From assembly GCA_038891035.1 (NCBI GenBank), contig JAWAEW010000005.1, forward strand, positions 1,425 through 65,424: a DNA stretch of 64,000 bases, read 5' to 3'. Made by a program: the position numbers and the translations under genes. The stretch comes from Candidatus Anstonellaceae archaeon. Its GTDB lineage: Archaea; Micrarchaeota; Micrarchaeia; Anstonellales; Anstonellaceae. Below are positions 5,363 to 64,000 of the stretch, in pieces; positions within the stretch are counted from its first letter, which is position 1, and each line of letters starts with the position of its first letter. A model generated the notes under the pieces. That model saw only the letters and a program-made list of their open reading frames with translations, was not told where the DNA came from and did no database searches.

Positions 5363-5944
5363 TTATTTGCTGTAAAGCATAAAGAGGGTCTGATTGTAAA
5401 TTCTCTGAGCATGATTGCGAAGACCTGCCTTTTCATAAAGCCGTTCTGCTTCTATAAAATAAATCATTTTTCTTTGCTTGCTGCAAGTGAAATTAGCAGC
5501 ATCTTCAAATGAAGCTGCCGCTGAAATAAAATCAAGCTTCTTCATAAATGAAGCGGCAGCATGGATTTGCAATTTTTCAAAAGAATCGAGCTTGTCTTCA
5601 TCTAACGACTCAAGATAAAGGATATATGTGCTTGCCCATTTTTTCAAGCTTGAGACCAAATAAAGGTCTGCAGCAAGCTTAAGTATTCTTACTTTGTAGG
5701 GAGGATTTAGAGCTGAAAAAGATACTAGCATGTCTGCTGCTTTTTTTGGCATTCCTGCTTGAAGATAAAGCAAAGCTGATTCAAGATGAAGATAAGGACT
5801 GCTGTGCCCCAAGGATGCTTTGCACTCTTTAATTTTGGCCTTCAAAAAATAAAGCGGGTGAAAAATTTTCCTTTGGTGTTGGGTTTTAAGCTGATGAAAA
5901 GTGGATGCAAGCTGTTGGAGTTTGTAAGATTGGTTCATGTGCAT
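5363..5944 (-). CDS. Hypothetical helical (TPR-like) protein
   Basis: ORF only. Helical repeat-like composition, no recognisable catalytic motif. Confidence 0.35.
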   Translation of the reverse strand: MHMNQSYKLQQLASTFHQLKTQHQRKIFHPLYFLKAKIKECKASLGHSSPYLHLESALLYLQAGMPKKAADMLVSFSALNPPYKVRILKLAADLYLVSSLKKWASTYILYLESLDEDKLDSFEKLQIHAAASFMKKLDFISAAASFEDAANFTCSKQRKMIYFIEAERLYEKAGLRNHAQRIYNQTLFMLYSK

Positions 5945-6477
5945 GCAGAAGGCTTTGGAGAGGAAAACTTATCGCATATCCAGGATTTGAGCTGCTCTTT
6001 TGGCATCTCACCTTCTGTTTTGTATTGTCCATTGATTATGAAGGTTGGAAAGCCCCTAAACATACCTTTTTCAGTATAAAATGAATACACTTGAGCAACA
6101 TCTTTGTTAGTACCTTTGTCTTCGTCTCTCCATCTTCTTACAACAAAGCGAGGGGACTGCAATTCTTTTTCAAGCTCTGCAAGCACTGGTTTCATTTTCT
6201 GGCAGTGCCCGCACCAGTCAGCATAAAGGAAATCCAAGGTGACTTCTGCTATTGGCTCAAGGTTGGGTGAGAGTTGAGTTTCCTGGGCTTGATAAGAAAG
6301 GGAAGGAGAGGAAGATGTAAATGAAATTGATCTTATGGATTTTTGTATGTTTGAAAAGCTAATGTAAATGGATGCACTTATTAGAAGAGCTGCCAAAATT
6401 ATTGCAATTGCAGTCACTAATCCTTTTTGCCTCTCATGAAAAGGAATGGGATTTTCTTCCTTAGCCACATGCACCAC
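5935..6477 (-). CDS. Membrane-anchored thioredoxin-like thiol-disulfide oxidoreductase
   Basis: N-terminal TM helix then a thioredoxin fold with WCGHCQ active site (LYADWCGHCQKMKPVL). GTG start. Confidence 0.7.
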   Translation of the reverse strand: MVHVAKEENPIPFHERQKGLVTAIAIILAALLISASIYISFSNIQKSIRSISFTSSSPSLSYQAQETQLSPNLEPIAEVTLDFLYADWCGHCQKMKPVLAELEKELQSPRFVVRRWRDEDKGTNKDVAQVYSFYTEKGMFRGFPTFIINGQYKTEGEMPKEQLKSWICDKFSSPKPSACT

Positions 6478-20530: not shown

Positions 20531-20980
20531 ATGGTGGTTTGGATGCTTGCTGAAAATCAAAAGGTCCCAGAATTCTCTTTACCTGACCCAACAGGAAAAG
20601 ACATACGGCTTTCTGATTTCAAAGGAAAAGTGGTTGTTTTGTACTTTTATCCAAAGGACGACACTCCTGGCTGCACCACTGAGGCTTGTAATTTCAGGGA
20701 CATATACAGTGAGCTTAAGAGTTTGGGGGCCGAAGTGGTTGGAGTTTCTCCAGACAGCCCGAAATCTCATTCTGCATTTGCGTCCAAATACGGCCTTCCT
20801 TTCCTACTACTTTCTGACCAGAAAAAAGAGGTTGCAAAGCTTTTTGGAGCGCTCAAGGATGACGGCTCGATCCTTCGCTCCACTTTTATAATAGACAAGG
20901 AAGGGAGGTTGAAGAAGGCATTCTTTGGGGTGGATCCTGCAAAGCACCATCAAGAGGTACTGAAATTTTTGAGAGAATGA
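20531..20980 (+). CDS. bcp: Peroxiredoxin (Bcp / AhpC-TSA family thiol peroxidase)
   Basis: FYPKDDTPGCTTEACNFRD peroxidatic Cys motif. Confidence 0.85.
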   Translation: MVVWMLAENQKVPEFSLPDPTGKDIRLSDFKGKVVVLYFYPKDDTPGCTTEACNFRDIYSELKSLGAEVVGVSPDSPKSHSAFASKYGLPFLLLSDQKKEVAKLFGALKDDGSILRSTFIIDKEGRLKKAFFGVDPAKHHQEVLKFLRE

Positions 20981-34747: not shown

Positions 34748-34855
34748 TCCCGCCAGTGTGATTTGAACACACAACATCCTGATGACTGCCAGCCCGATTG
34801 CTGACCGCCGTGCTTTTCTACAGCCAGGCGCTCTACCAGGTTGAGCTATGGCGGG
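34748..34855 (-). tRNA. tRNA-Tyr (anticodon GTA) with ~34-nt intron at the canonical 37/38 position
   Basis: Manual fold. Acceptor CCCGCCA/TGGCGGG with C1:G72 and A73 (archaeal Tyr identity). D-arm GCTC-AACCTGGTA-GAGC. Anticodon stem CCTGG, loop CTGTAG(A), intron ~34783-34816 (+ coordinates), then TCAGG. T-arm GTGTG-TTCAAAT-CACAC. TATA-like TTTAAAAAG ~30 bp upstream (34884-34896). Confidence 0.75.
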
Positions 34856-57189: not shown

Positions 57190-57744
57190 ATGCTTTGGCT
57201 TGTAAATAATGGACTTTGCAACTATTCTGCGCTTGCAAGAAAACTTCAAAAGGAGCTTTATCCTAACAAAAAGAACGCCTTTGTCGCAATAAAGGCTGCT
57301 TTGCTTCGAACAGCAAAAGAATACGGGGAACTTGCGCAAAGGGACTGGGAGAAAGAAGTCGAAAGGATACTTAAGGCAAGTTCTGTTGAGATACGAACGC
57401 ATGTTGCAGTTGCATCAAGCAAAGGCAGCATAGGTGTGCCCGTAATTGCTACTGCAAGCAGCAAATCAGGAGTGATGAGTGTAGTGGATGCTGCCTACGT
57501 GCCCCAGCTGAAGAAAAAAGGGGTTAAAGTGACTGACGATTTGACGCTTGTTATACTTTGCAGCCCACCGCAGCTTCAGGAGACTCCTGGTTGCGTTGCT
57601 GCAATACTTGATGCAATCGCCACTGAAGGGATAAATGTGCTTCAGTTTATCTCTTGCCATACTGATACTTTGATGGTAATGCGTAACAGCGATGCTATGA
57701 GGGCATATGAAATATTGATGGAATTGACTGGAAAGGTAGACTAA
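57190..57744 (+). CDS. Hypothetical protein with C-terminal ACT-like domain
   Basis: VAAILDAIATEGINVLQFISCHTDTLMVMRNSDAMRAYEIL resembles an ACT regulatory fold. Confidence 0.4.
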   Translation: MLWLVNNGLCNYSALARKLQKELYPNKKNAFVAIKAALLRTAKEYGELAQRDWEKEVERILKASSVEIRTHVAVASSKGSIGVPVIATASSKSGVMSVVDAAYVPQLKKKGVKVTDDLTLVILCSPPQLQETPGCVAAILDAIATEGINVLQFISCHTDTLMVMRNSDAMRAYEILMELTGKVD

Positions 57745-58040
57745 AGCGGCACCCCAAAAAAAGAAAGCAGCAGAACAAGTAGCACTCCCAGTACTCCACC
57801 AAATGCAGCAATCAAGAAGGTGGCAAGATCAATTGGGACCTGAATAATTCCAAGAAATGAAAAAAGCCAAAAAATTGCAATCCCTGCAATACCATGTAAA
57901 ACCAGTGGGAGAACTTTTTTTAACAAGTGGAAAATAGAGGCCGCAATAAGAACTGAAACAACTAATGCAAGAATAATACCCCAACTCATGAAAGAAGAAA
58001 CGGAAAAAAAGAATAAAGGCTTATTGGGCAAGTTTTCCAA
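57741..58040 (-). CDS. Small membrane protein (3 TM, hypothetical)
   Basis: Hydrophobic ORF. Confidence 0.35.
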   Translation of the reverse strand: MENLPNKPLFFFSVSSFMSWGIILALVVSVLIAASIFHLLKKVLPLVLHGIAGIAIFWLFSFLGIIQVPIDLATFLIAAFGGVLGVLLVLLLSFFGVPL

Positions 58041-58437
58041 TTAGCTTTGCCTCTAAAACCAAAATATCCACTTTTGAAAAGCCATGCTGCCCTACAAATG
58101 CAACTTCAAATTTGTCAGGAGAACCGCAAAGGGAAGAAAAGACAGACTTTCCTCCGGGATGCTTCGGGATGAACTCTGTTATATCAAAAACTTCACCTTT
58201 ATAGACTACCCAGCAATCGGTAAGTGAAGAATGCTTTGCAAGTTCGTCTGTGGAAATCTCTGGCTGCTGCGAAAGGGAGGATTGAGGTTTCTGTTGGTTT
58301 TGAGTTTGCTCAGATTGGATTGGTTGATGCCCTTTTTCATCTAAATTTTGGTTTTCTTTAGTATTGCCCATCTTGCTTTCAGGGATGCTGCACCCTGATA
58401 AAAGCAGCATGCATAAAACTATGAAAGTCCAAAACAA
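58021..58437 (-). CDS. Secreted/lipoprotein cytochrome b5-like heme-binding domain protein
   Basis: Signal peptide with LLLSGCSIP lipobox-like. DCWVVYKGEVFDITEFIPKHPGG matches the cyt b5 heme-binding motif. Confidence 0.65.
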   Translation of the reverse strand: MFWTFIVLCMLLLSGCSIPESKMGNTKENQNLDEKGHQPIQSEQTQNQQKPQSSLSQQPEISTDELAKHSSLTDCWVVYKGEVFDITEFIPKHPGGKSVFSSLCGSPDKFEVAFVGQHGFSKVDILVLEAKLIGKLAQ

Positions 58438-58441
58438 AACG

Positions 58442-59158
58442 TCACCTCAGATAGTTTAGGTTCTGAATAGTGAAAAATTTTAAATATCTTTGCTGGGCTG
58501 CTGATATTTTAACTACTGCAAAATTCCAATGTGATGCAACCAAATCTCCGACTTTTATATTTTGTCCAATGGAAACATCTTTACATTTCAGCTTCCATGC
58601 CTTTTTTGTGGGGACAAGCCTGAACCCTAACTTGTCTTTGACTATCTTTTGAGAATCAACATAAAGTAGATCTTCTTTCTTTTTGAGAACCTTGCCCCAA
58701 CTGATCCTGCACAAATCAGCAGTTTTCAAGCTTGAAGGAAGTTTGCCACTTATGCTGCGAATGAAGAAAACGTGAAAGGAATGGTGTGGAAAGATTTGTT
58801 CAGGTAAATCCAACACTAATTTTTCAGCCTGTTTTCTTGAAAGAAAGCCAGGTGCGCAAAAATCATGCAAGATCATCTCTCTTACACTTTCTTTTTTAAC
58901 ATTTGAAAGGAGACTGTTTCCTATCCAAAAGGCTTCACAAACCTTAAGGTCAAAAGGTTGAAGGCCATTTTCTTTAGCAATGAGACGAAGATAAGAATAA
59001 TGCGCTCTGAATTTCATAAGCTGCAGCTCAAGCGGCCTACAAAAAAGTCTTTTATGCTTAAGGAATGATTTAAATGCTGGTAAAAATGATTTTGTTCCGC
59101 AGTATGAAAGGATATTTGGCGGCAAAGCAAAGCGCGCAGCCAGTTCTACTCCAAGCAT
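58442..59158 (-). CDS. Hypothetical protein
   Basis: ORF only. Confidence 0.4.
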   Translation of the reverse strand: MLGVELAARFALPPNILSYCGTKSFLPAFKSFLKHKRLFCRPLELQLMKFRAHYSYLRLIAKENGLQPFDLKVCEAFWIGNSLLSNVKKESVREMILHDFCAPGFLSRKQAEKLVLDLPEQIFPHHSFHVFFIRSISGKLPSSLKTADLCRISWGKVLKKKEDLLYVDSQKIVKDKLGFRLVPTKKAWKLKCKDVSIGQNIKVGDLVASHWNFAVVKISAAQQRYLKFFTIQNLNYLR

Positions 59159-59162
59159 AACA

Positions 59163-60083
59163 TCATAACCGAAGCACTGCCTTTGCCTTCTGCTTCACCC
59201 AATATGCTGCTGAGAGTGTTTCTGCTGCACCTATGCTAACCACTGCTCCAAACGCAAGCAAAAGAAATCCTGCCGCCTGAAGAGGGAGAAGGGCCTTGCC
59301 TGCAAAGGCAAAAGAGAACAGAGCGCTTATTGGGCCTCCTAATGTTAATGCTGCAGTAGCAAAGATGAGCGATGTGCTTGCAAGGGCAGAGTACCACAGA
59401 GTGACAAATAGAGTAAGAAAACCTACTGAAATTGCTATCCATCCCAAAGAGGATGGGCTAATATCAAGCAGTGAATCTGCTTTGCCCTGCGTCAAAACCA
59501 CTGCAAGCAAAAGCAAAGCCCCAATTCCCATTCTGGCTGCCGCAACCGAAAGAGGAGAGAGGGTGGCTGTGAGTTTCTTGGAAAGTGCATATTCAAAGGC
59601 CCAAATGATTGTTGCTGCAAGCACCAGAAGTGAACCTGTAGAATAGCTCAGGGGGGAGGAAGGGCCAAGCAAAAGAAAGTTCCCTAAAATTACGCTGAAC
59701 GCACCTAAGGCGATTTTCCAATTTATTTTCTCTTTGAAAAGAACTACAGCTGCAATTATAGAGAAAATGAAAAGCAAGCGAAAAATGAATGAGCCTTCTG
59801 CCCCGCTTATTGAAGAAAGGCCGCTGAAAAATAGAGCAAAAGCAACACCACCGCCAAACAAGCCTACAAACAAAAGCATAAGCAACTGCTTTATGTCCAG
59901 AAGCAGAAATTCCTTCCATCTTCCCCATAGGATGCAAAGCGAAGCAAGAATGGATGCTACAAGTAAGTTTCTAACAAACGCATAGGAGGTGGCATCCATG
60001 CTTACCACACCAAAACTATTTACAAAAACAGAAATGCCGCTTACTAAAGCAGCAAGATAAGCCAACGCTACGCCATTGCTCAT
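59163..60083 (-). CDS. DMT-superfamily (EamA-like) transporter
   Basis: About 10 TM helices in two repeated 5-TM halves. Confidence 0.7.
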   Translation of the reverse strand: MSNGVALAYLAALVSGISVFVNSFGVVSMDATSYAFVRNLLVASILASLCILWGRWKEFLLLDIKQLLMLLFVGLFGGGVAFALFFSGLSSISGAEGSFIFRLLFIFSIIAAVVLFKEKINWKIALGAFSVILGNFLLLGPSSPLSYSTGSLLVLAATIIWAFEYALSKKLTATLSPLSVAAARMGIGALLLLAVVLTQGKADSLLDISPSSLGWIAISVGFLTLFVTLWYSALASTSLIFATAALTLGGPISALFSFAFAGKALLPLQAAGFLLLAFGAVVSIGAAETLSAAYWVKQKAKAVLRL

Positions 60084-60101
60084 GTGCTGATTTAAAGGTT
60101 T

Positions 60102-60614
60102 TTGATTTATAAATTTAAGTGCAAACCAAAGTATGTGAAAAAGCTTGCCATCTCTTGGGTGACATTTGCCTGCTGTGAGGATTCCACTATCCTTTTTGTT
60201 GAGTTGCTAAACAAACATTTCTTTGAGTGGAAAGACAAAATAGAGTTTAGATATTGTCCTTTCCTAAAAGGGAAAGGGAATGATTTTGAGGGAAGCGACG
60301 TAACTTTTGTTGAAGGTGCAATTGCAACTAAGGAAGATGAACAGTTGCTTTTGAAAATTCGACAACAAAGCAAAAGAATAGTTGCAATAGGTTCCTGCGC
60401 ATGCACGGGTCTACCATCTGCCCAGCGAAATACGTTTGACGAATCCACCAAGCGAGAAATAATGATGATTGTAGAACGCTTTGGACATCTGGAAAAAGTG
60501 CATCCAATAAAGGATTTGATAAAAGTAGACTACCAAGTATCTGGCTGTCCGATGGATGAGAAGCTCTTTCTTTCCACTTTGCAAAAGTTGTTTGATGAAT
60601 TTGGAGTAAAATAA
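60102..60614 (+). CDS. [NiFe]-hydrogenase small subunit (NuoB-like, 170 aa)
   Basis: Proximal FeS ligands: FACCEDS (CCxxE), GSCACTGLP and SGCPMDE (GCPP-type). Confidence 0.75.
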   Translation: MIYKFKCKPKYVKKLAISWVTFACCEDSTILFVELLNKHFFEWKDKIEFRYCPFLKGKGNDFEGSDVTFVEGAIATKEDEQLLLKIRQQSKRIVAIGSCACTGLPSAQRNTFDESTKREIMMIVERFGHLEKVHPIKDLIKVDYQVSGCPMDEKLFLSTLQKLFDEFGVK

Positions 60615-60623
60615 GGTGATAGA

Positions 60624-61967
60624 TTGCACAAAGAAGGAGAATTTGATATAGACATAAAGCATCTTTCAAAAATAGAAGGCCACACTGACCTTGAAGTAAA
60701 GGTCAAGAATGGAGTAGTTCAGTATGCACATCTGAAAATAAGCGAATCCAAGCGGTTTTTCACTCAGGCGGTTAGAGGCAAATCATGTCTTAATGTAGCA
60801 CAGCTTGTTTCAAGAATATGCGGCACCTGTTCAATTGCGCACCTGATCACTTGCATTCAAGCAGTGGAAGATGCCTTAGGTATAGTTCCTACAGAGCAGA
60901 CAATGACACTGCGGCATCTTACGGAAGATGGGTTGATGATTCGTGACCATGCTATGCATCTTTACATATTTTGCTTGCCGGATATTATGAATGCTGATTC
61001 CATCCTTGAGCTTGCAGAAACCCACAAGGGATTGATTGAGAAAGCATTGGAAGTCAAATCTGCAGGAAATGAGCTTTCCAAGCTGATTGCAGGGAGGGCT
61101 GTCCATGCGCCCTATCCAGTAGTTGGTGGGTACACCAAAATTCCAGATAACCAAAGTTGCAGGGAGATGGCCCATGTTCTAAGCCATGCACGTGAGCATG
61201 CACTCGAATTCGTTGATCTTTTCAGGGAGACCCTTCCTTCGTATGAAAGGAAGACACATTTCGTTGCTCTCAAAAATCCAAAGTACGAATATATTGGAGG
61301 TGAGATTTGTTCTTCTGAAGGATATTGCGTTTCAAAAGAAAACTTTTGGAATCATCTATACAGAGTAGTAGTCCCATATTCTCAGTCCACGGGATTTGAA
61401 TTTGAAGGAAAAGAATATATGGTTGGTGCACTTGCAAGGATGAATCTGAACAAGGAGGCGCTTCATAAAGATACGAAAAAAGATGTGAGTGCCTGTTTGC
61501 CATTGTTCCCCTCGAACAACATCTTTGCAAATAATTTGGCTCAGGCAATAGAAATAGTAAACAGCATAGATCATGCAATTGAGATACTAGAAAGCTATGA
61601 TTTTAAGGCAGAACCATACAAGACTCCACAGGTGAAAGCAGGGACTGGCATAGGTGTAACTGAAGCTCCGCGGGGCACGCTTTATTATGCCCTTAAAATA
61701 AACGAACAAGGACTGGTAGAATATATCAACCTTGTAATACCGACTGCACAGAACATGGTAAATATAGAAAAGGATATGGCTCAAATAGTGCAGCGAGGAA
61801 TTGATGAAGGCAAAGAAAAAGAAGAGCTTTCTATGGAGGTAGAACGTCTTGTGCGAGCATATGATCCATGTATGAGCTGTGCCACTCACTTTTTGAGGCT
61901 AAGAATAAAAGAAACTAAAAGAAGTGGCAGACCAAAAGATTATATACGGCCATTTATCCTACGCTGA
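60624..61967 (+). CDS. [NiFe]-hydrogenase large subunit
   Basis: N-terminal RICGTCSIAH (L1 motif) and C-terminal DPCMSCATH (L2 motif) Ni-Fe ligands. TTG start after AAGGTGA SD. Confidence 0.85.
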   Translation: MHKEGEFDIDIKHLSKIEGHTDLEVKVKNGVVQYAHLKISESKRFFTQAVRGKSCLNVAQLVSRICGTCSIAHLITCIQAVEDALGIVPTEQTMTLRHLTEDGLMIRDHAMHLYIFCLPDIMNADSILELAETHKGLIEKALEVKSAGNELSKLIAGRAVHAPYPVVGGYTKIPDNQSCREMAHVLSHAREHALEFVDLFRETLPSYERKTHFVALKNPKYEYIGGEICSSEGYCVSKENFWNHLYRVVVPYSQSTGFEFEGKEYMVGALARMNLNKEALHKDTKKDVSACLPLFPSNNIFANNLAQAIEIVNSIDHAIEILESYDFKAEPYKTPQVKAGTGIGVTEAPRGTLYYALKINEQGLVEYINLVIPTAQNMVNIEKDMAQIVQRGIDEGKEKEELSMEVERLVRAYDPCMSCATHFLRLRIKETKRSGRPKDYIRPFILR

Positions 61968-62345
61968 GTCGACCATGCTTTTTATCAGCTTTTCTACTTT
62001 TTTGATGTGTGTAAGCGGCTTTTTAGGAGGAACCCCGATTATAATGGCCTCTTTCAATTTGCCAAGCTTTTTTAGCAAGAGCAGATTCCACAGCAAATCA
62101 AAGCCATGCAAAGACAATGGAGCATCTGCAAGCTCAAGCTCATCAATCTTAACAACGCGTGGCTCTTTTAGTCCAATCACCACATCAAGGAGTGTAATTC
62201 TTTCTCCTTCCTTTTCTAAATCTTCTGAGGTGTCAAAAGGCACAAACTCAACCTCTCTTAACCTACTGGAAAGTCTCTTCGCAATTTTTATTGCAGCAGA
62301 ATCTTGCAAAGCAAGTGGGTTTCCAAAGACAAGAACTCTCAGCAT
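61959..62345 (-). CDS. Hydrogenase maturation endopeptidase (HycI/HybD family)
   Basis: MLRVLVFGNPLALQDSAAIKIA N-terminus and SLHGFDL region. Size 128 aa. Confidence 0.65.
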   Translation of the reverse strand: MLRVLVFGNPLALQDSAAIKIAKRLSSRLREVEFVPFDTSEDLEKEGERITLLDVVIGLKEPRVVKIDELELADAPLSLHGFDLLWNLLLLKKLGKLKEAIIIGVPPKKPLTHIKKVEKLIKSMVDSA

Positions 62346-62353
62346 AATGACAC

Positions 62354-62935
62354 CTAAAGCCGCGAAGCCTCAAACCCTCTTGCAGAAAGTGAAAGTGAAA
62401 GGCGCCGAGCCTTCCTAAAGCAAGCATGAAGTACCGGAATTATAATTGCAATGATGGAAAATGAAGAGCAGCCTCTACATCTTTGAGCAAGGTATGTTTT
62501 GTGTATCTTTCTCATTATGAATGGCACAGAAATGAAAGAGAGTGAAAACAGGAATGAAAGCCTTTTTGAAAGCCCAAAAGACTGTAAGGTAGATGCAATT
62601 TGGGCAGGCGAGGTGGTGAGTGCAAAAATCAGTGGTAGAAACACGATTGAAAATGCGAAAAAGAAATTATGGAGGGCAAAATAAATATTTGCAGGAACAA
62701 GAACTCCAAGCAGTTCTACCTTACCTGTCTGTGTAAGCAGACGCACCAGCGCCGGAAAAAGAGGTAAGACCAAAAGATAGGAATGAAGTCGAATCAACTT
62801 CAGTATGCTTAATGATGAAAGCCTATAGATCAAAAGAGTAAAAAGAAAAAACAGTGCACCATATTCAAGAGGAAGAATGATTTGAAGCAGTATGAGCAAA
62901 ATTAATAAGCCGAGCTTATACCGCGCATCGATCAT
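62354..62935 (-). CDS. ECF/cobalt transporter transmembrane component (EcfT/CbiQ-like)
   Basis: Polytopic membrane protein downstream of the ABC ATPase. Start assumed at MIDARYKLG. Confidence 0.6.
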   Translation of the reverse strand: MIDARYKLGLLILLILLQIILPLEYGALFFLFTLLIYRLSSLSILKLIRLHSYLLVLPLFPALVRLLTQTGKVELLGVLVPANIYFALHNFFFAFSIVFLPLIFALTTSPAQIASTLQSFGLSKRLSFLFSLSFISVPFIMRKIHKTYLAQRCRGCSSFSIIAIIIPVLHACFRKARRLSLSLSARGFEASRL

Positions 62936-62976
62936 ATGAATGATTGAATTCTTCTTGGAATAAATATTCACTAAAC

Positions 62977-63723
62977 CTACCTCACTGGCATCCTCAAACC
63001 CAAATTTTGTAATTTCTTGCTGAAAAGCAAGGAAGGCTTTCCTTGTGCAACTAACTTGCCGTCTGCCAATACTACTATTCTGGTTGCGTACTTTGCCAAA
63101 AGGCAGGTATCCTGCTCTGTTATTATTACTGTCTTGCCCTCTTTTGCCATTTTTGAAAGTATGGAATAAATCTCGCATGCTGATTTCCAATCAAGGCTTG
63201 CAACAGGCTCATCAAGAAGTAAAATTGGGCTTTCCTGCGCAATTGCACAAGCAAGAGCAACTTTTTGCTTTTGACCGACAGAAAGTTCAGTTGGATCTGC
63301 ATCCGCAAGATTGTCTAGACCGATTTTTTTGAGTGCTTCGAACGCTTTTTGCTTTGCCTTTTCTTGACTTATTTCTTGAGTGCAAAAAAGGCCAAAAGCT
63401 ACTTCGTCAATTACAGTCATGTTGAATATCTGATCGTCTGCATCTTGGAATACCATGGAAGAAAGCTTTGCAATTTCCCTGAACGGTAGGGAAGAGACCT
63501 CTTTGCCAAAAATTTTTACACTTCCGGAAAACTTGCCTTTAATTTCTTTTGGTATCAGTCCGTTGCAACAATAAAGGAGAGAGGTTTTCCCAGAGCCGAC
63601 AGGCCCAATAATGCCTACAAACTCCCCTTGAAAGAATGAGAGCGATATGTTGGATAAAGCTTGTTTTTCTTTGCCTTCGTATGAAAATGACACCTCTTTT
63701 ATTTCAAGCACTTTTTGTGGCAT
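62977..63723 (-). CDS. ABC transporter ATP-binding protein (EcfA/CbiO-like)
   Basis: Walker A GPVGSGKTS. Signature LSVGQKQKVALACAIA. Walker B LLLDEP. Confidence 0.85.
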   Translation of the reverse strand: MPQKVLEIKEVSFSYEGKEKQALSNISLSFFQGEFVGIIGPVGSGKTSLLYCCNGLIPKEIKGKFSGSVKIFGKEVSSLPFREIAKLSSMVFQDADDQIFNMTVIDEVAFGLFCTQEISQEKAKQKAFEALKKIGLDNLADADPTELSVGQKQKVALACAIAQESPILLLDEPVASLDWKSACEIYSILSKMAKEGKTVIITEQDTCLLAKYATRIVVLADGKLVAQGKPSLLFSKKLQNLGLRMPVR

Positions 63724-63727
63724 AAAA

Positions 63728-64000
63728 TCAACAACTGGAATACTTCCTTGCAAACCCAAGCTTGAAAGCAATCAGCCACGCCAATCCAAGCTCGACTGCT
63801 GCCTGAATTGCGTTGAAGAAAAAGATTGCGATATACCATATTGCACCTGAGCCAAAAAAAAGCAAGTCAGATGAGCTTACCAATTCAACAAATTGCTCCG
63901 TGGTCATCTTGAAGTAAAGTGGGCCTGCAAAATAAAAATTGGCAACCACCATGGAAATCCCGCGGATAACGATCGCAATTGGCGCAAGTAGAAGAATCGT
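63728..64000 (-). CDS. Membrane component of the same transporter operon (partial, continues beyond window end)
   Basis: Hydrophobic reading frame open to position 64000 on the minus strand. Confidence 0.4.
   Translation of the reverse strand, partial: TILLLAPIAIVIRGISMVVANFYFAGPLYFKMTTEQFVELVSSSDLLFFGSGAIWYIAIFFFNAIQAAVELGLAWLIAFKLGFARKYSSC

What the first reader, a model, noticed from the sequence alone, without database searches (positions are those of the whole stretch)
60102..62345. Minimal two-subunit [NiFe] hydrogenase with maturation protease but no electron-transfer partner
A 170-aa NuoB-like small subunit carries only the proximal cluster ligands (CCxxE, GSCACTG, GCP). A 447-aa large subunit carries RICGTC...DPCMSCATH. 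The only adjacent gene is a HycI-type endopeptidase, convergent on the opposite strand. No diaphorase, ferredoxin-like, cytochrome b or Mbh/Ech membrane subunits are encoded nearby. The flanks are an unrelated DMT transporter and an ECF transporter. The physiological electron acceptor or donor is therefore not obvious, and the enzyme may be a minimal soluble hydrogenase of an under-studied group.
Basis: partly seen in the sequence, partly recalled or inferred. Interest (0 to 1): 0.55.

Follow-up and report, generated by a model that had tools for sequence, protein, structure and literature searches.

The report
Truncated two-subunit nickel-iron hydrogenase locus
This tiny archaeon (Micrarchaeota) carries a stripped-down nickel-iron hydrogenase with only one iron-sulfur cluster and no built-in electron-transfer subunits; the type was already noted in ultra-small bacteria, its redox partner is still unknown, and the neighbouring "unrelated" transporter gene and a domain-of-unknown-function gene turn out to be conserved hydrogenase accessory genes.

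Summary
Window 60102-62345 encodes a short small subunit (PF01058), a 447-aa [NiFe] large subunit (RICGTCSIAH / DPCMSCATH plus a 25-residue tail) and a convergent maturation endopeptidase. The nearest characterised enzyme is the group 3b sulfhydrogenase. However, the small subunit lacks the roughly 110-residue, 8-Cys domain for the medial and distal clusters. No HydB/HydG, ferredoxin or hyp genes lie in the 64-kb window.

In 27 related loci (Micrarchaeota, Aenigmatarchaeota, Iainarchaeota, CPR bacteria) the short form is one clade and never has HydB/HydG within 10 kb. This matches the "hyd2" 3b-related clade described for CPR by Jaffe et al. 2020, so the finding is a new member of a known but biochemically uncharacterised kind.

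The DMT (EamA) transporter and the adjacent DUF6390 gene form a conserved pair. In 80 DUF6390 loci, EamA is directly upstream in 58 and a [NiFe] large subunit lies within 10 kb in 56. DUF6390 ends in a HypC-like domain, so the pair most likely serves maturation.

The electron partner is not encoded locally. A separately encoded ferredoxin, with H2 evolution as a fermentative sink, is the best inference, but it is unproven.

The parts
60135..60614 (+). [NiFe]-hydrogenase small subunit, truncated type. It is 159 aa from the GTG at 60135; the mechanical ORF starts at the TTG at 60102 and gives 170 aa. It binds a single proximal [4Fe-4S] cluster with ligands C24/C25 (tandem CC), C99 and C149 in 170-aa numbering.
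   Evidence: It matches PF01058 at 1.9e-20. It aligns only to residues about 48-147 of the 261-aa P. furiosus HydD delta subunit and to positions 5-153 of 261 in the NCBIfam HydD model. Only 20 residues and no Cys follow the GCP motif, against 106-138 residues with 8 Cys in long forms. The 120 best homologues are all 157-176 aa and carry PF01058 only.
60624..61967 (+). [NiFe]-hydrogenase large (catalytic) subunit, 447 aa. Ni-Fe ligands are C66/C69 (RICGTCSIAH) and C416/C419 (DPCMSCATH). A 25-residue C-terminal extension (423-447) is presumably removed by the endopeptidase.
   Evidence: It matches PF00374 at 1.9e-30. The best PDB hits are the sulfhydrogenase I alpha subunits 9nez_D and 5yxy_A at about 1e-70, against MvhA at 2e-42 and HoxH at 3e-28. 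It scores 254 bits against NCBIfam HydA, below the 880-bit cut-off. A 100% identical protein is annotated from a Ca. Anstonellaceae archaeon.
61959..62345 (-). Hydrogenase maturation endopeptidase (HycI/HybD-type), 128 aa, convergent with the large-subunit gene.
   Evidence: It matches TIGR00072 at 6.8e-6, below threshold. G8 N9 D15 D54 H80 are invariant in 32 orthologues. The best PDB profile hit is 5ija at E 0.049, in register. Across loci its presence tracks the presence of a C-terminal extension on the large subunit.
59163..60083 (-). EamA/DMT-family 10-TM transporter, divergent from the small-subunit gene. It is a conserved hydrogenase-linked accessory gene and its substrate is unknown.
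   Evidence: It matches PF00892 at 4.3e-30. It lies directly upstream of DUF6390 on the same strand in 58 of 80 DUF6390-seeded loci, and it is present in most short-type and long-type 3b-like loci. E118, E164, R184 and W161 are invariant, and no His or Cys is conserved.
58442..59158 (-). DUF6390 protein, 238 aa. It has a novel all-helical N-domain (1-150; conserved P14-N15, C20-G21, P124-HHSFH129, D148) fused to a HypC-like beta-barrel plus helix (C150-RISWGKV ... GDLVASHW). It is a probable hydrogenase maturation chaperone.
   Evidence: It matches PF19927 at 5.7e-35. Two homologues carry PF01455, and JGI names some 'hydrogenase maturation factor'. The top three PDB profile hits are all HypC, in register. 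C-terminal domains hit PF01455 at 1.2e-6 to 0.15. The AF2 model has pLDDT 92.7. Foldseek returns OB folds including HypC 2z1c_B. The N-domain alone has no PDB match. A [NiFe] large subunit lies within 10 kb in 56 of 80 loci.
60084..60134 (.). Short divergent intergenic region between the EamA and small-subunit genes. A TATA-like TTTATAAA lies at 60106-60113, about 25 nt upstream of the GTG at 60135.
   Evidence: Read directly from the sequence. Promoter function is inferred, not tested.
62354..63771 (-). ECF-type transporter genes (CbiQ-like T component, then an ABC ATPase) downstream of the endopeptidase. This is context only, and a link to nickel supply is not established.
   Evidence: PF02361 matches at 2.1e-13 and PF00005 at 4.6e-26. 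The arrangement is shared only with the closest relative L010, whose third gene (264 aa) has no Pfam match and is not CbiM. Other Micrarchaeota loci carry CbiM, NikR_C and Zip nearby.

Best explanation
The locus encodes a cytosolic, heterodimeric [NiFe]-hydrogenase derived from the four-subunit group 3b (NADP/sulfhydrogenase) type. The derivation involved loss of the small subunit's medial/distal-cluster domain and of the HydB/HydG diaphorase.

Shown:
- The catalytic subunit keeps all four Ni-Fe cysteines and a cleavable C-terminal tail.
- The small subunit keeps one [4Fe-4S] site, with a NuoB-like tandem-Cys motif.
- A dedicated endopeptidase is present.
- A conserved EamA-DUF6390 gene pair is present, and DUF6390 contains a HypC-like domain.
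- The enzyme belongs to a single clade that spans DPANN archaea and CPR bacteria. This is the 'hyd2' clade of Jaffe et al. 2020.

Inferred:
- EamA-DUF6390 act in maturation or cofactor supply, not in electron transfer.
- The exposed proximal cluster exchanges electrons directly with a small soluble low-potential carrier encoded elsewhere. Ferredoxin reduced by 2-oxoacid:ferredoxin oxidoreductases is the most likely carrier.
- The enzyme therefore vents fermentative reductant as H2, possibly reversibly.
For: Nearest characterised relatives are 3b alpha and delta subunits.

The truncation is documented. The tail after the GCP motif is 14-44 aa with 0-1 Cys in the short type, against 106-138 aa with 8 Cys in the long type.

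All 27 short-type loci form one clade in an NJ tree. None has HydB (Fer4_22) or HydG (NAD_binding_1 + DHODB_Fe-S) within 10 kb, whereas most long-type loci have both.

No partner, fusion or ferredoxin is conserved near the short-type loci. Nothing of the kind lies in the 64-kb window.

Signs of a functional enzyme:
- RICGTCS.AH and DPCMSCA.H are strictly conserved.
- The FLKVxW extension is present and co-occurs with the protease.

In addition, HypC often lies directly upstream of EamA, and HypB-HypC-DUF6390 occurs in Chloroflexota.

The ferredoxin idea rests on indirect evidence:
- The related LFWA-III Micrarchaeota are fermenters with KorAB/OforAB, and the one MAG lacking these also lacks the hydrogenase (PMC8561730).
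- Minimal [FeFe] hydrogenases of DPANN are predicted to reoxidise ferredoxin (PMC11216029).

There is no Tat signal in the small subunit, read directly from the sequence.
Against: - No ferredoxin or other carrier gene is linked to any of the loci, so the partner assignment is purely inferential.
- Every biochemically characterised hydrogenase with a one-cluster small subunit (HoxY in 3d, HydS of Acetomicrobium mobile, group 4) docks onto another Fe-S subunit rather than onto a free carrier. This point rests on established knowledge plus the PDB hits 5xf9_C and 7t2r_E.
- Whole genomes could not be searched, so unlinked HydB/HydG-like genes are not excluded. Jaffe et al. also left this open.
- No HypD/E/F motifs were seen in any of the 90 loci, so how the Fe(CN)2CO centre is made in these organisms was not established here.
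- The tree is a quick NJ tree, not a maximum-likelihood analysis.
- The HypC-likeness of DUF6390 rests on several marginal scores that agree with each other, not on one strong score.
Confidence: 0.55

Rival explanations
1. Split complex. The heterodimer is the hydrogenase module of a larger enzyme whose Fe-S/flavin partner (HydBG-like, HoxFU/NuoEF-like or other) is encoded elsewhere in the genome and docks where the lost medial/distal domain used to be.
For: All characterised one-cluster small subunits work this way; compare the HoxY 5xf9_C and HydS 7t2r_E hits. Jaffe et al. found NAD-binding and Fe-S families in the wider vicinity of some hyd2 genes and left the question open. Whole genomes were not searchable here.
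Against: No such gene lies within 10 kb in any of 27 short-type loci from at least four phyla, nor within 60 kb upstream in this window. There are no fusion proteins among the 120 closest small subunits or the 120 closest large subunits. In long-type relatives, HydB/HydG are tightly linked to the structural genes, so dispersal would have to be universal in the short clade.
Confidence: 0.25
2. Ordinary group 3b enzyme. It is NADPH-coupled and bidirectional, as assumed in the Micrarchaeota and Woesearchaeota literature from HydDB classification of the large subunit.
For: The large subunit is closest to 3b. Published annotations call it group 3b and NADPH-coupled (PMC8561730; PMC8421398).
Against: No FAD/NAD(P)-binding HydG or Fe-S HydB subunit is present, and the small subunit lacks the two clusters that wire the active site to them. 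NCBIfam equivalog scores are far below the cut-offs: 254 of 880 bits for HydA and 57 of 500 bits for HydD.
Confidence: 0.05
3. H2-uptake enzyme. It feeds a thiol or antioxidant system, or another non-ferredoxin acceptor such as thioredoxin/peroxiredoxin or rubredoxin-like proteins, rather than acting as a fermentative H2 producer.
For: Thioredoxin (5935-6477) and peroxiredoxin (20531-20980) genes are in the window. Thioredoxin reductase and glutaredoxin genes follow the large subunit in several CPR long-type operons. The NuoB-like tandem-Cys ligation could shift the cluster potential; this last point is inference.
Against: The thiol genes are linked to long-type loci, not short-type loci, and they lie 40-54 kb away in this window. 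No conserved acceptor is present near short-type loci.
Confidence: 0.1
4. Relic or non-catalytic protein, either a sensor or a decaying operon in a reduced genome.
For: Partner subunits and local hyp genes are missing. Several clade members have only three Cys at the proximal site (C-S-E-D-S).
Against: All Ni-Fe ligands, the extension and the protease triad are strictly conserved across phyla at 54-91% identity. Synteny with maturation-type genes is conserved. Hundreds of intact homologues exist.
Confidence: 0.05

Closest known systems
[quoted passage not shown] 2020, BMC Biol 18:69, PMC7304191)
   Same: The small subunit is truncated (159-170 aa here; mean 164 aa reported). No beta/gamma subunits lie next to the structural genes. 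A HypC-related family is in the neighbourhood. The large subunit is 54-56% identical to CPR members such as Falkowbacteria GW2011 and sits in the same clade in the NJ tree.
   Different: The host is a DPANN archaeon (Micrarchaeota, Ca. Anstonellaceae), whereas the clade was presented as CPR-specific. The gene order differs: EamA-DUF6390 are divergent from small-large here, but lie upstream of the protease and convergent with large-small in CPR. The C-terminal extension is longer (25 aa against 7). I could not map my sequences onto the published tree itself.
Group 3b [NiFe]-hydrogenase / sulfhydrogenase I of Pyrococcus furiosus and Thermococcus kodakarensis (HydABGD / HyhBGSL; PDB 9nez, 5yxy)
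   Same: It is the closest characterised large subunit (E about 1e-70 over the full length) and the closest small-subunit N-domain. The L1/L2 motifs match. The enzyme is cytosolic.
   Different: The medial and distal [4Fe-4S] clusters are missing, and there is no HydB or HydG. The proximal-cluster motif is the tandem CC instead of CxxC. Scores lie far below the equivalog cut-offs.
HoxY-type and HydS-type one-cluster small subunits (group 3d NAD-reducing hydrogenase 5xf9; electron-bifurcating NiFe-HydABCSL 7t2r)
   Same: The small subunit is about 180 aa and carries only the proximal cluster.
   Different: Those enzymes pass electrons to the HoxU/HoxF or HydA/B/C Fe-S flavoprotein modules, which are absent here. 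Similarity of the large subunit is much weaker (3e-28 and 1.6e-35).
NuoB / group 4 (Ech, Hyc, Mbh) small subunits
   Same: The CCxxE-type tandem-cysteine motif, the single cluster and the size are shared.
   Different: Homology scores to NuoB are marginal (E 0.005), and the large subunit is not NuoD-like (E 0.005). No membrane subunits are present. The CC motif appears to have arisen within a group-3 lineage whose basal members (L016, L017) keep CxxC.
HypC/HupF/HybG chaperones (for DUF6390)
   Same: The C-terminal roughly 90 residues have the HypC layout: Cys followed by a beta-barrel, the GDxVxxHxG motif and a terminal helix. Supporting evidence is the PF01455 hits and the HypC PDB hits. The gene is linked to hydrogenase genes and lies next to bona fide hypC.
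   Different: The conserved Cys is internal (C150), not the N-terminal residue that HypC uses. It is preceded by a 150-residue helical domain with conserved Cys/His motifs and no structural relative in the PDB. The gene is always paired with an EamA transporter gene.

Membership tests
Group 3b [NiFe]-hydrogenase (HydABGD/HyhBGSL) | The large subunit is most similar to 3b alpha subunits and carries the RxCGxCxxxH and DPCxxCxxH motifs. | tested here: met
   PDB hits 9nez_D and 5yxy_A score about 1e-70, well ahead of 3c, 3a and 3d. Motifs are at residues 64 and 414. The NCBIfam equivalog cut-off is not reached (254 of 880 bits).
Group 3b [NiFe]-hydrogenase (HydABGD/HyhBGSL) | The small (delta) subunit has proximal, medial and distal [4Fe-4S] clusters and is about 250-260 aa. 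| tested here: not met
   The subunit is 159-170 aa with 20 residues and 0 Cys after GCP, against 106-138 residues and 8 Cys in long forms. It aligns only to the N-terminal part of HydD.
Group 3b [NiFe]-hydrogenase (HydABGD/HyhBGSL) | HydB (Fe-S) and HydG (FAD/NAD(P), 2Fe-2S) diaphorase subunits are present. | tested here: not met
   They are absent from the 64-kb window and from the 10-kb flanks of all 27 short-type loci. They are present next to long-type relatives. Whole-genome absence could not be tested.
'hyd2' 3b-related clade (Jaffe et al. 2020) | The small subunit is consistently truncated to about 164 aa. | tested here: met
   (157-176 aa in the 120 closest homologues); definition.
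'hyd2' 3b-related clade (Jaffe et al. 2020) | No proximal beta/gamma subunits, with a HypC-related family nearby. | tested here: met
   The DUF6390 HypC-like domain is supported.
'hyd2' 3b-related clade (Jaffe et al. 2020) | The large subunit falls inside the published hyd2 clade. | tested here: inconclusive
   It clusters with CPR short-type sequences (Falkowbacteria, Roizmanbacteria, Parcubacteria GW2011_GWA2_42_14) in my NJ tree. The published tree and sequence list were not available for a direct comparison.
Hydrogenase maturation endopeptidase (peptidase A31; HycI/HybD, TIGR00072) | A conserved metal-binding triad (acidic residue after the GN motif, Asp, His) and the family fold. | tested here: met
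   G8 N9 D15 D54 H80 are invariant. The alignment to 5ija is in register at E 0.049. TIGR00072 scores 26 bits, below the 47-bit cut-off. The fold was not modelled.
HupF/HypC family (PF01455), for DUF6390 | An OB-barrel with the GDxVLVHxGFA motif and a C-terminal helix. | tested here: met
   One homologue reaches 29 bits, above the 28.5-bit gathering score.
HupF/HypC family (PF01455), for DUF6390 | The essential cysteine is the N-terminal residue of the mature protein. | tested here: not met
   The invariant Cys is at position 150, behind a 149-residue N-domain. DUF6390 is therefore HypC-like in part, not a HypC.
Group 4 / NuoB-type small subunit | Homology to NuoB, and association with a NuoD-like large subunit and membrane subunits. 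| tested here: not met
   NuoB models score only E 0.005-0.008 and the NuoD model E 0.005. No membrane subunits are present.

The most novel reading that the evidence does not exclude
EamA-DUF6390 may be a previously unrecognised, widely distributed [NiFe]-hydrogenase accessory module.
- It consists of a DMT transporter translationally coupled to a protein that fuses a new Cys/His-bearing helical domain to a HypC-like chaperone domain.
- It is present in at least 591 species-level genomes. These include DPANN, CPR, Thermoplasmata, Bathyarchaeota, and Chloroflexota including cultured Nitrolancea hollandica.
- It may supply or insert something needed for active-site assembly.

Together with this module, the truncated 'hyd2' heterodimer would be the [NiFe] counterpart of the minimal ferredoxin-dependent [FeFe] hydrogenases recently shown to be active in DPANN. 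That would make it a free-standing two-subunit enzyme that needs no Fe-S relay.
Probability: 0.4. Interest if true: 0.65.

Novelty: new member of a known kind. Interest (0 to 1): 0.45.

Why it matters
Published metabolic reconstructions of DPANN and CPR organisms treat this enzyme as a normal NADPH-coupled group 3b hydrogenase. The subunit content shows it cannot be one, so predicted redox balances and H2 fluxes for these abundant groundwater and sediment symbionts need revisiting.

If the heterodimer works alone with ferredoxin, it would be among the simplest [NiFe] hydrogenases known and an attractive minimal scaffold.

The conserved EamA-DUF6390 pair gives a concrete, testable lead into hydrogenase maturation. 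It can be tested both in organisms with tiny genomes and in cultivable Chloroflexota.

Tried and rejected
- **Cytochrome b5-like gene (58021-58437) as the missing partner.** Rejected. It has a lipoprotein signal (LLLSGC), so it is extracytoplasmic. It is shared only with the closest relative, where HPGG has become HPNW.
- **Ferric-reductase-domain and ApbE genes near L001/L003 as partners.** They are not conserved beyond those loci.
- **ECF CbiQ/CbiO genes as a nickel importer.** Not established. They are shared only with L010, and the third gene is not CbiM.
- **EamA as a Ni2+ transporter.** No His or Cys is conserved; the invariant residues are Glu, Arg, Lys and Trp. An organic substrate is more likely.
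- **Rosetta-stone search for fusions of the short small subunit or the large subunit.** None were found.
- **Ferredoxin, rubredoxin and thioredoxin motif scan of short-type loci.** Nothing was conserved.
- **Motif scan for HypD/E/F in 90 loci.** None were found.
- **Look-up of the window's own contig beyond 64 kb.** It failed because the protein is not on record.
- **Foldseek of the DUF6390 N-domain.** No significant match.
- **Literature search for DUF6390, and for EamA + NiFe + hypC.** No papers were found.
Full report
**Observation**

- **Small subunit.** The ORF 60102-60614 (+) matches PF01058 at E 1.9e-20. It contains FACCEDS, GSCACTG and SGCP.
- **Large subunit.** The ORF 60624-61967 (+) matches PF00374 at E 1.9e-30. 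It has R64-ICGTCSIAH and D414-PCMSCATH, followed by a 25-residue extension.
- **Endopeptidase.** The convergent 128-aa ORF 61959-62345 (-) overlaps the end of the large-subunit gene by 9 bp.
  - It is only a sub-threshold match to the hydrogenase maturation protease model TIGR00072 (6.8e-6).
  - An alignment of 32 orthologues has invariant G8, N9, D15, D54 and H80. This is the GN..D / D / H metal triad of HycI/HybD-type peptidases.
  - The profile's best PDB hit is the maturation endopeptidase 5ija, aligned in register (E 0.049).
- **Start codon.** The small subunit probably starts at the GTG at 60135, giving 159 aa. Orthologues are called at 159-162 aa. A TATA-like TTTATAAA lies about 25 nt upstream.
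- **Source organism.** The window comes from a Ca. Anstonellaceae archaeon (Micrarchaeota, DPANN). The large subunit is 100% identical to an NCBI MAG protein.

**What kind of hydrogenase**

- The large subunit is closest to the group 3b sulfhydrogenase I alpha subunits of Pyrococcus and Thermococcus, at about 1e-70 over the full length. MvhA scores 2e-42, FrhA 4e-31 and HoxH 3e-28. NCBIfam gives the same order, but the scores are far below the equivalog cut-offs.
- The small subunit aligns only to the N-terminal roughly 150 residues of the 261-aa HydD delta subunit.
- I aligned 24 short and 10 long small subunits taken from related loci.
  - The short ones end 14-44 residues after the GCP motif, with 0-1 Cys.
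  - The long ones continue for 106-138 residues with eight invariant Cys, which bind the medial and distal clusters.
  - Most short forms carry a tandem CC(E)DS motif, which is NuoB-like. Long forms and the two basal short forms keep CxxC. Several short members have only C-S at that site.

**Is a partner encoded nearby?**

- Pfam scans of about 60 ORFs across the whole window found no HydB/HydG, HoxFU, ferredoxin, cytochrome b, Mbh/Ech or hyp genes.
- The window does hold a malic enzyme, thioredoxin, peroxiredoxin, non-oxidative pentose-phosphate genes, an A-type ATPase operon and ProRS.
- I collected 90 loci, from relatives of the large subunit and from a genome-collection scan with a DUF6390 alignment. 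I called and clustered their genes. Pfam checks confirmed the key clusters: HypC, HypA, HydB-like Fer4_22, HydG-like NAD_binding_1 + DHODB_Fe-S, and CbiM.
- Two architectures emerge.
  - **Long type:** HydB-HydG-[HypC]-EamA-DUF6390-small(245-293 aa)-large.
  - **Short type:** [HypC]-EamA-DUF6390-protease, convergent with large-small(153-213 aa). In Micrarchaeota, DUF6390-EamA are instead divergent from small-large, followed by a convergent protease.
- In an NJ tree of large subunits rooted on P. furiosus SHI alpha, all 27 short-type loci form one clade. None has HydB or HydG within 10 kb.
- Sensitive clustering restricted to the short-type loci finds only the large subunit (27 loci), the small subunit (24), EamA/DUF6390/HypC (24) and the protease (22) as conserved genes.
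- No ferredoxin-like motif is conserved there.
- There are no fusion proteins among the 120 closest small subunits or the 120 closest large subunits.
- The protease co-occurs with a C-terminal extension on the large subunit. CPR long-type large subunits end exactly at the His and have no protease gene.

**The flanks are not unrelated**

- EamA (59163-60083, -) and DUF6390 (58442-59158, -) are separated by 4 bp. They are syntenic with the hydrogenase in relatives at 87, 76, 72 and 55% large-subunit identity.
- Among the 80 DUF6390-seeded loci, EamA lies directly upstream on the same strand in 58, and a [NiFe] large subunit lies in the flank in 56 (51 at E<1e-40). These loci were the best 80 of at least 591 species genomes, from DPANN, CPR, Thermoplasmata, Bathyarchaeota and Chloroflexota. 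Many of the remaining loci are truncated contigs.
- DUF6390 has invariant P14-N15, C20-G21, P124-H-H-S-F-H129, D148-x-C150 and H210-W211.
- Its C-terminal roughly 90 residues are HypC-like, on five lines of evidence:
  - Two homologues carry PF01455, and JGI names some 'hydrogenase maturation factor'.
  - The family profile's top three PDB hits are all HypC. C150 aligns to the HypC Cys, and GDxVxxHWG aligns to GDWVIVHTG.
  - Isolated C-domains hit PF01455 as the only other family, at 1.2e-6 to 0.15.
  - The AF2 model (pLDDT 92.7) shows a beta-barrel plus a terminal helix behind an all-helical N-domain.
  - Foldseek returns OB folds, including HypC 2z1c_B with the best target-normalised TM-score, 0.58.
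- The N-domain modelled alone (pLDDT 84) has no PDB neighbour.
- In Chloroflexota, including cultured Nitrolancea hollandica, DUF6390 follows HypB-HypC next to roughly 635-aa large subunits of another group.
- The pair is shared by short-type and long-type enzymes and by other hydrogenase groups. I therefore read it as a maturation or cofactor-supply function, not as the missing electron partner.
- The linked EamA proteins conserve Glu, Arg, Lys and Trp but no His or Cys. This argues against simple Ni2+ transport.

**Literature**

- Jaffe et al. 2020 (PMC7304191) described two CPR clades of 3b-related hydrogenases.
  - 'hyd2' has consistently truncated small subunits (mean 164 against 250 aa) and no proximal beta/gamma subunits.
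  - A HypC-related family lies nearby.
  - Its function 'remains uncertain'.
- Vazquez-Campos et al. 2021 (PMC8561730) call the enzyme of Anstonellales and related Micrarchaeota group 3b and assume NADPH coupling. They also note that the only MAG lacking it lacks the 2-oxoacid:ferredoxin oxidoreductases too.
- The same assumption is made for Woesearchaeota.
- No paper in the library mentions DUF6390, and none links EamA, NiFe and hypC.
- Greening et al. 2024 (PMC11216029) show that minimal [FeFe] hydrogenases of DPANN are active and predict ferredoxin coupling. They do not treat this [NiFe] type.

**Mechanism**

- *Shown:* an intact catalytic subunit, a single-cluster small subunit, a dedicated protease, and a conserved EamA-DUF6390 pair. 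No diaphorase or Fe-S relay is encoded locally in any member of the clade.
- *Inferred:* the enzyme is a cytosolic heterodimer, since the small subunit has no Tat motif. Its exposed proximal cluster would exchange electrons directly with a soluble low-potential carrier encoded elsewhere, most plausibly ferredoxin reduced by KorAB/OforAB. That would let these fermenters dispose of reductant as H2.
- *Main rival:* an unlinked Fe-S/flavoprotein docks onto the heterodimer, as in HoxHY-FU. I could not search whole genomes, so this rival stays open.
- NADPH coupling as published is not compatible with the subunit content.

**Verdict**

- The finding is real and correctly described at the sequence level.
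- It belongs to an already reported but uncharacterised clade (hyd2), here in a DPANN archaeon.
- Novelty: new member of a known kind. Interest: moderate.

Noticed in passing
window 58442-60083 (-), and loci L011-L090: The EamA transporter gene and the DUF6390 gene form a tightly coupled pair (4-bp gap here). The pair is conserved next to [NiFe] hydrogenase genes in DPANN, CPR, Thermoplasmata and Chloroflexota. DUF6390 is a novel helical Cys/His domain fused to a HypC-like domain. No paper in the library mentions it.
   Followed up: yes
window 60102-60614; alignment of loci: Short-type small subunits replaced the CxxC proximal-cluster motif of long group-3 forms by a NuoB-like tandem CC(E)DS. 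Several members (L003, L026, L082, L008) have only three Cys at the site.
   Followed up: partly
L021-L023, L029, L030, L035, L036, L042, L045, L056, L057, L076, L088: CPR long-type large subunits end exactly at the His of DPCxxCxxH and have no endopeptidase gene nearby. All short-type ones carry an FL(K/R)VxW... extension and a protease gene. The window's extension is unusually long (25 aa).
   Followed up: partly
window 58021-58437 (-) and 57741-58040 (-): A cytochrome b5-like haem-domain protein with a lipoprotein signal peptide sits next to a BofA-like small membrane protein. It is shared only with the closest relative (L010), where HPGG has become HPNW. An extracytoplasmic b5 domain is unusual in an archaeon.
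   Followed up: partly
window 34748-34855 (-): Rfam reports a tRNA match of 108 nt (53.8 bits) that ARAGORN did not report. It is probably an intron-containing archaeal tRNA.
   Followed up: no
L077 (Nitrolancea hollandica Lb), L086, L087, L090: In Chloroflexota, DUF6390 follows HypB-HypC and lies near roughly 635-aa [NiFe] large subunits of a different group. The family is therefore not restricted to 3b-like enzymes, and a cultivated carrier exists.
   Followed up: partly
L005 and L009 (Micrarchaeota), L030 and L035 (listed as Gammaproteobacteria and Buchananbacteria MAGs): Nickel-related genes (NikR C-domain, Zip, CbiM) lie within a few kb of the hydrogenase/EamA-DUF6390 genes in some loci. 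In the window, the adjacent ECF genes (CbiQ, ABC ATPase) have no recognisable CbiM.
   Followed up: partly
L022, L023, L029, L045, L088: In CPR long-type operons the large subunit is followed by a truncated HypA (no zinc finger), thioredoxin reductase and glutaredoxin genes. This suggests a link between that enzyme type and thiol redox metabolism.
   Followed up: no
window 62354-63190 / 62977-63771 (-): The mechanical CbiQ ORF overlaps the ABC ATPase ORF by 214 nt. The orthologue in L010 is called at 204 aa, so the real CbiQ start is probably further downstream.
   Followed up: no
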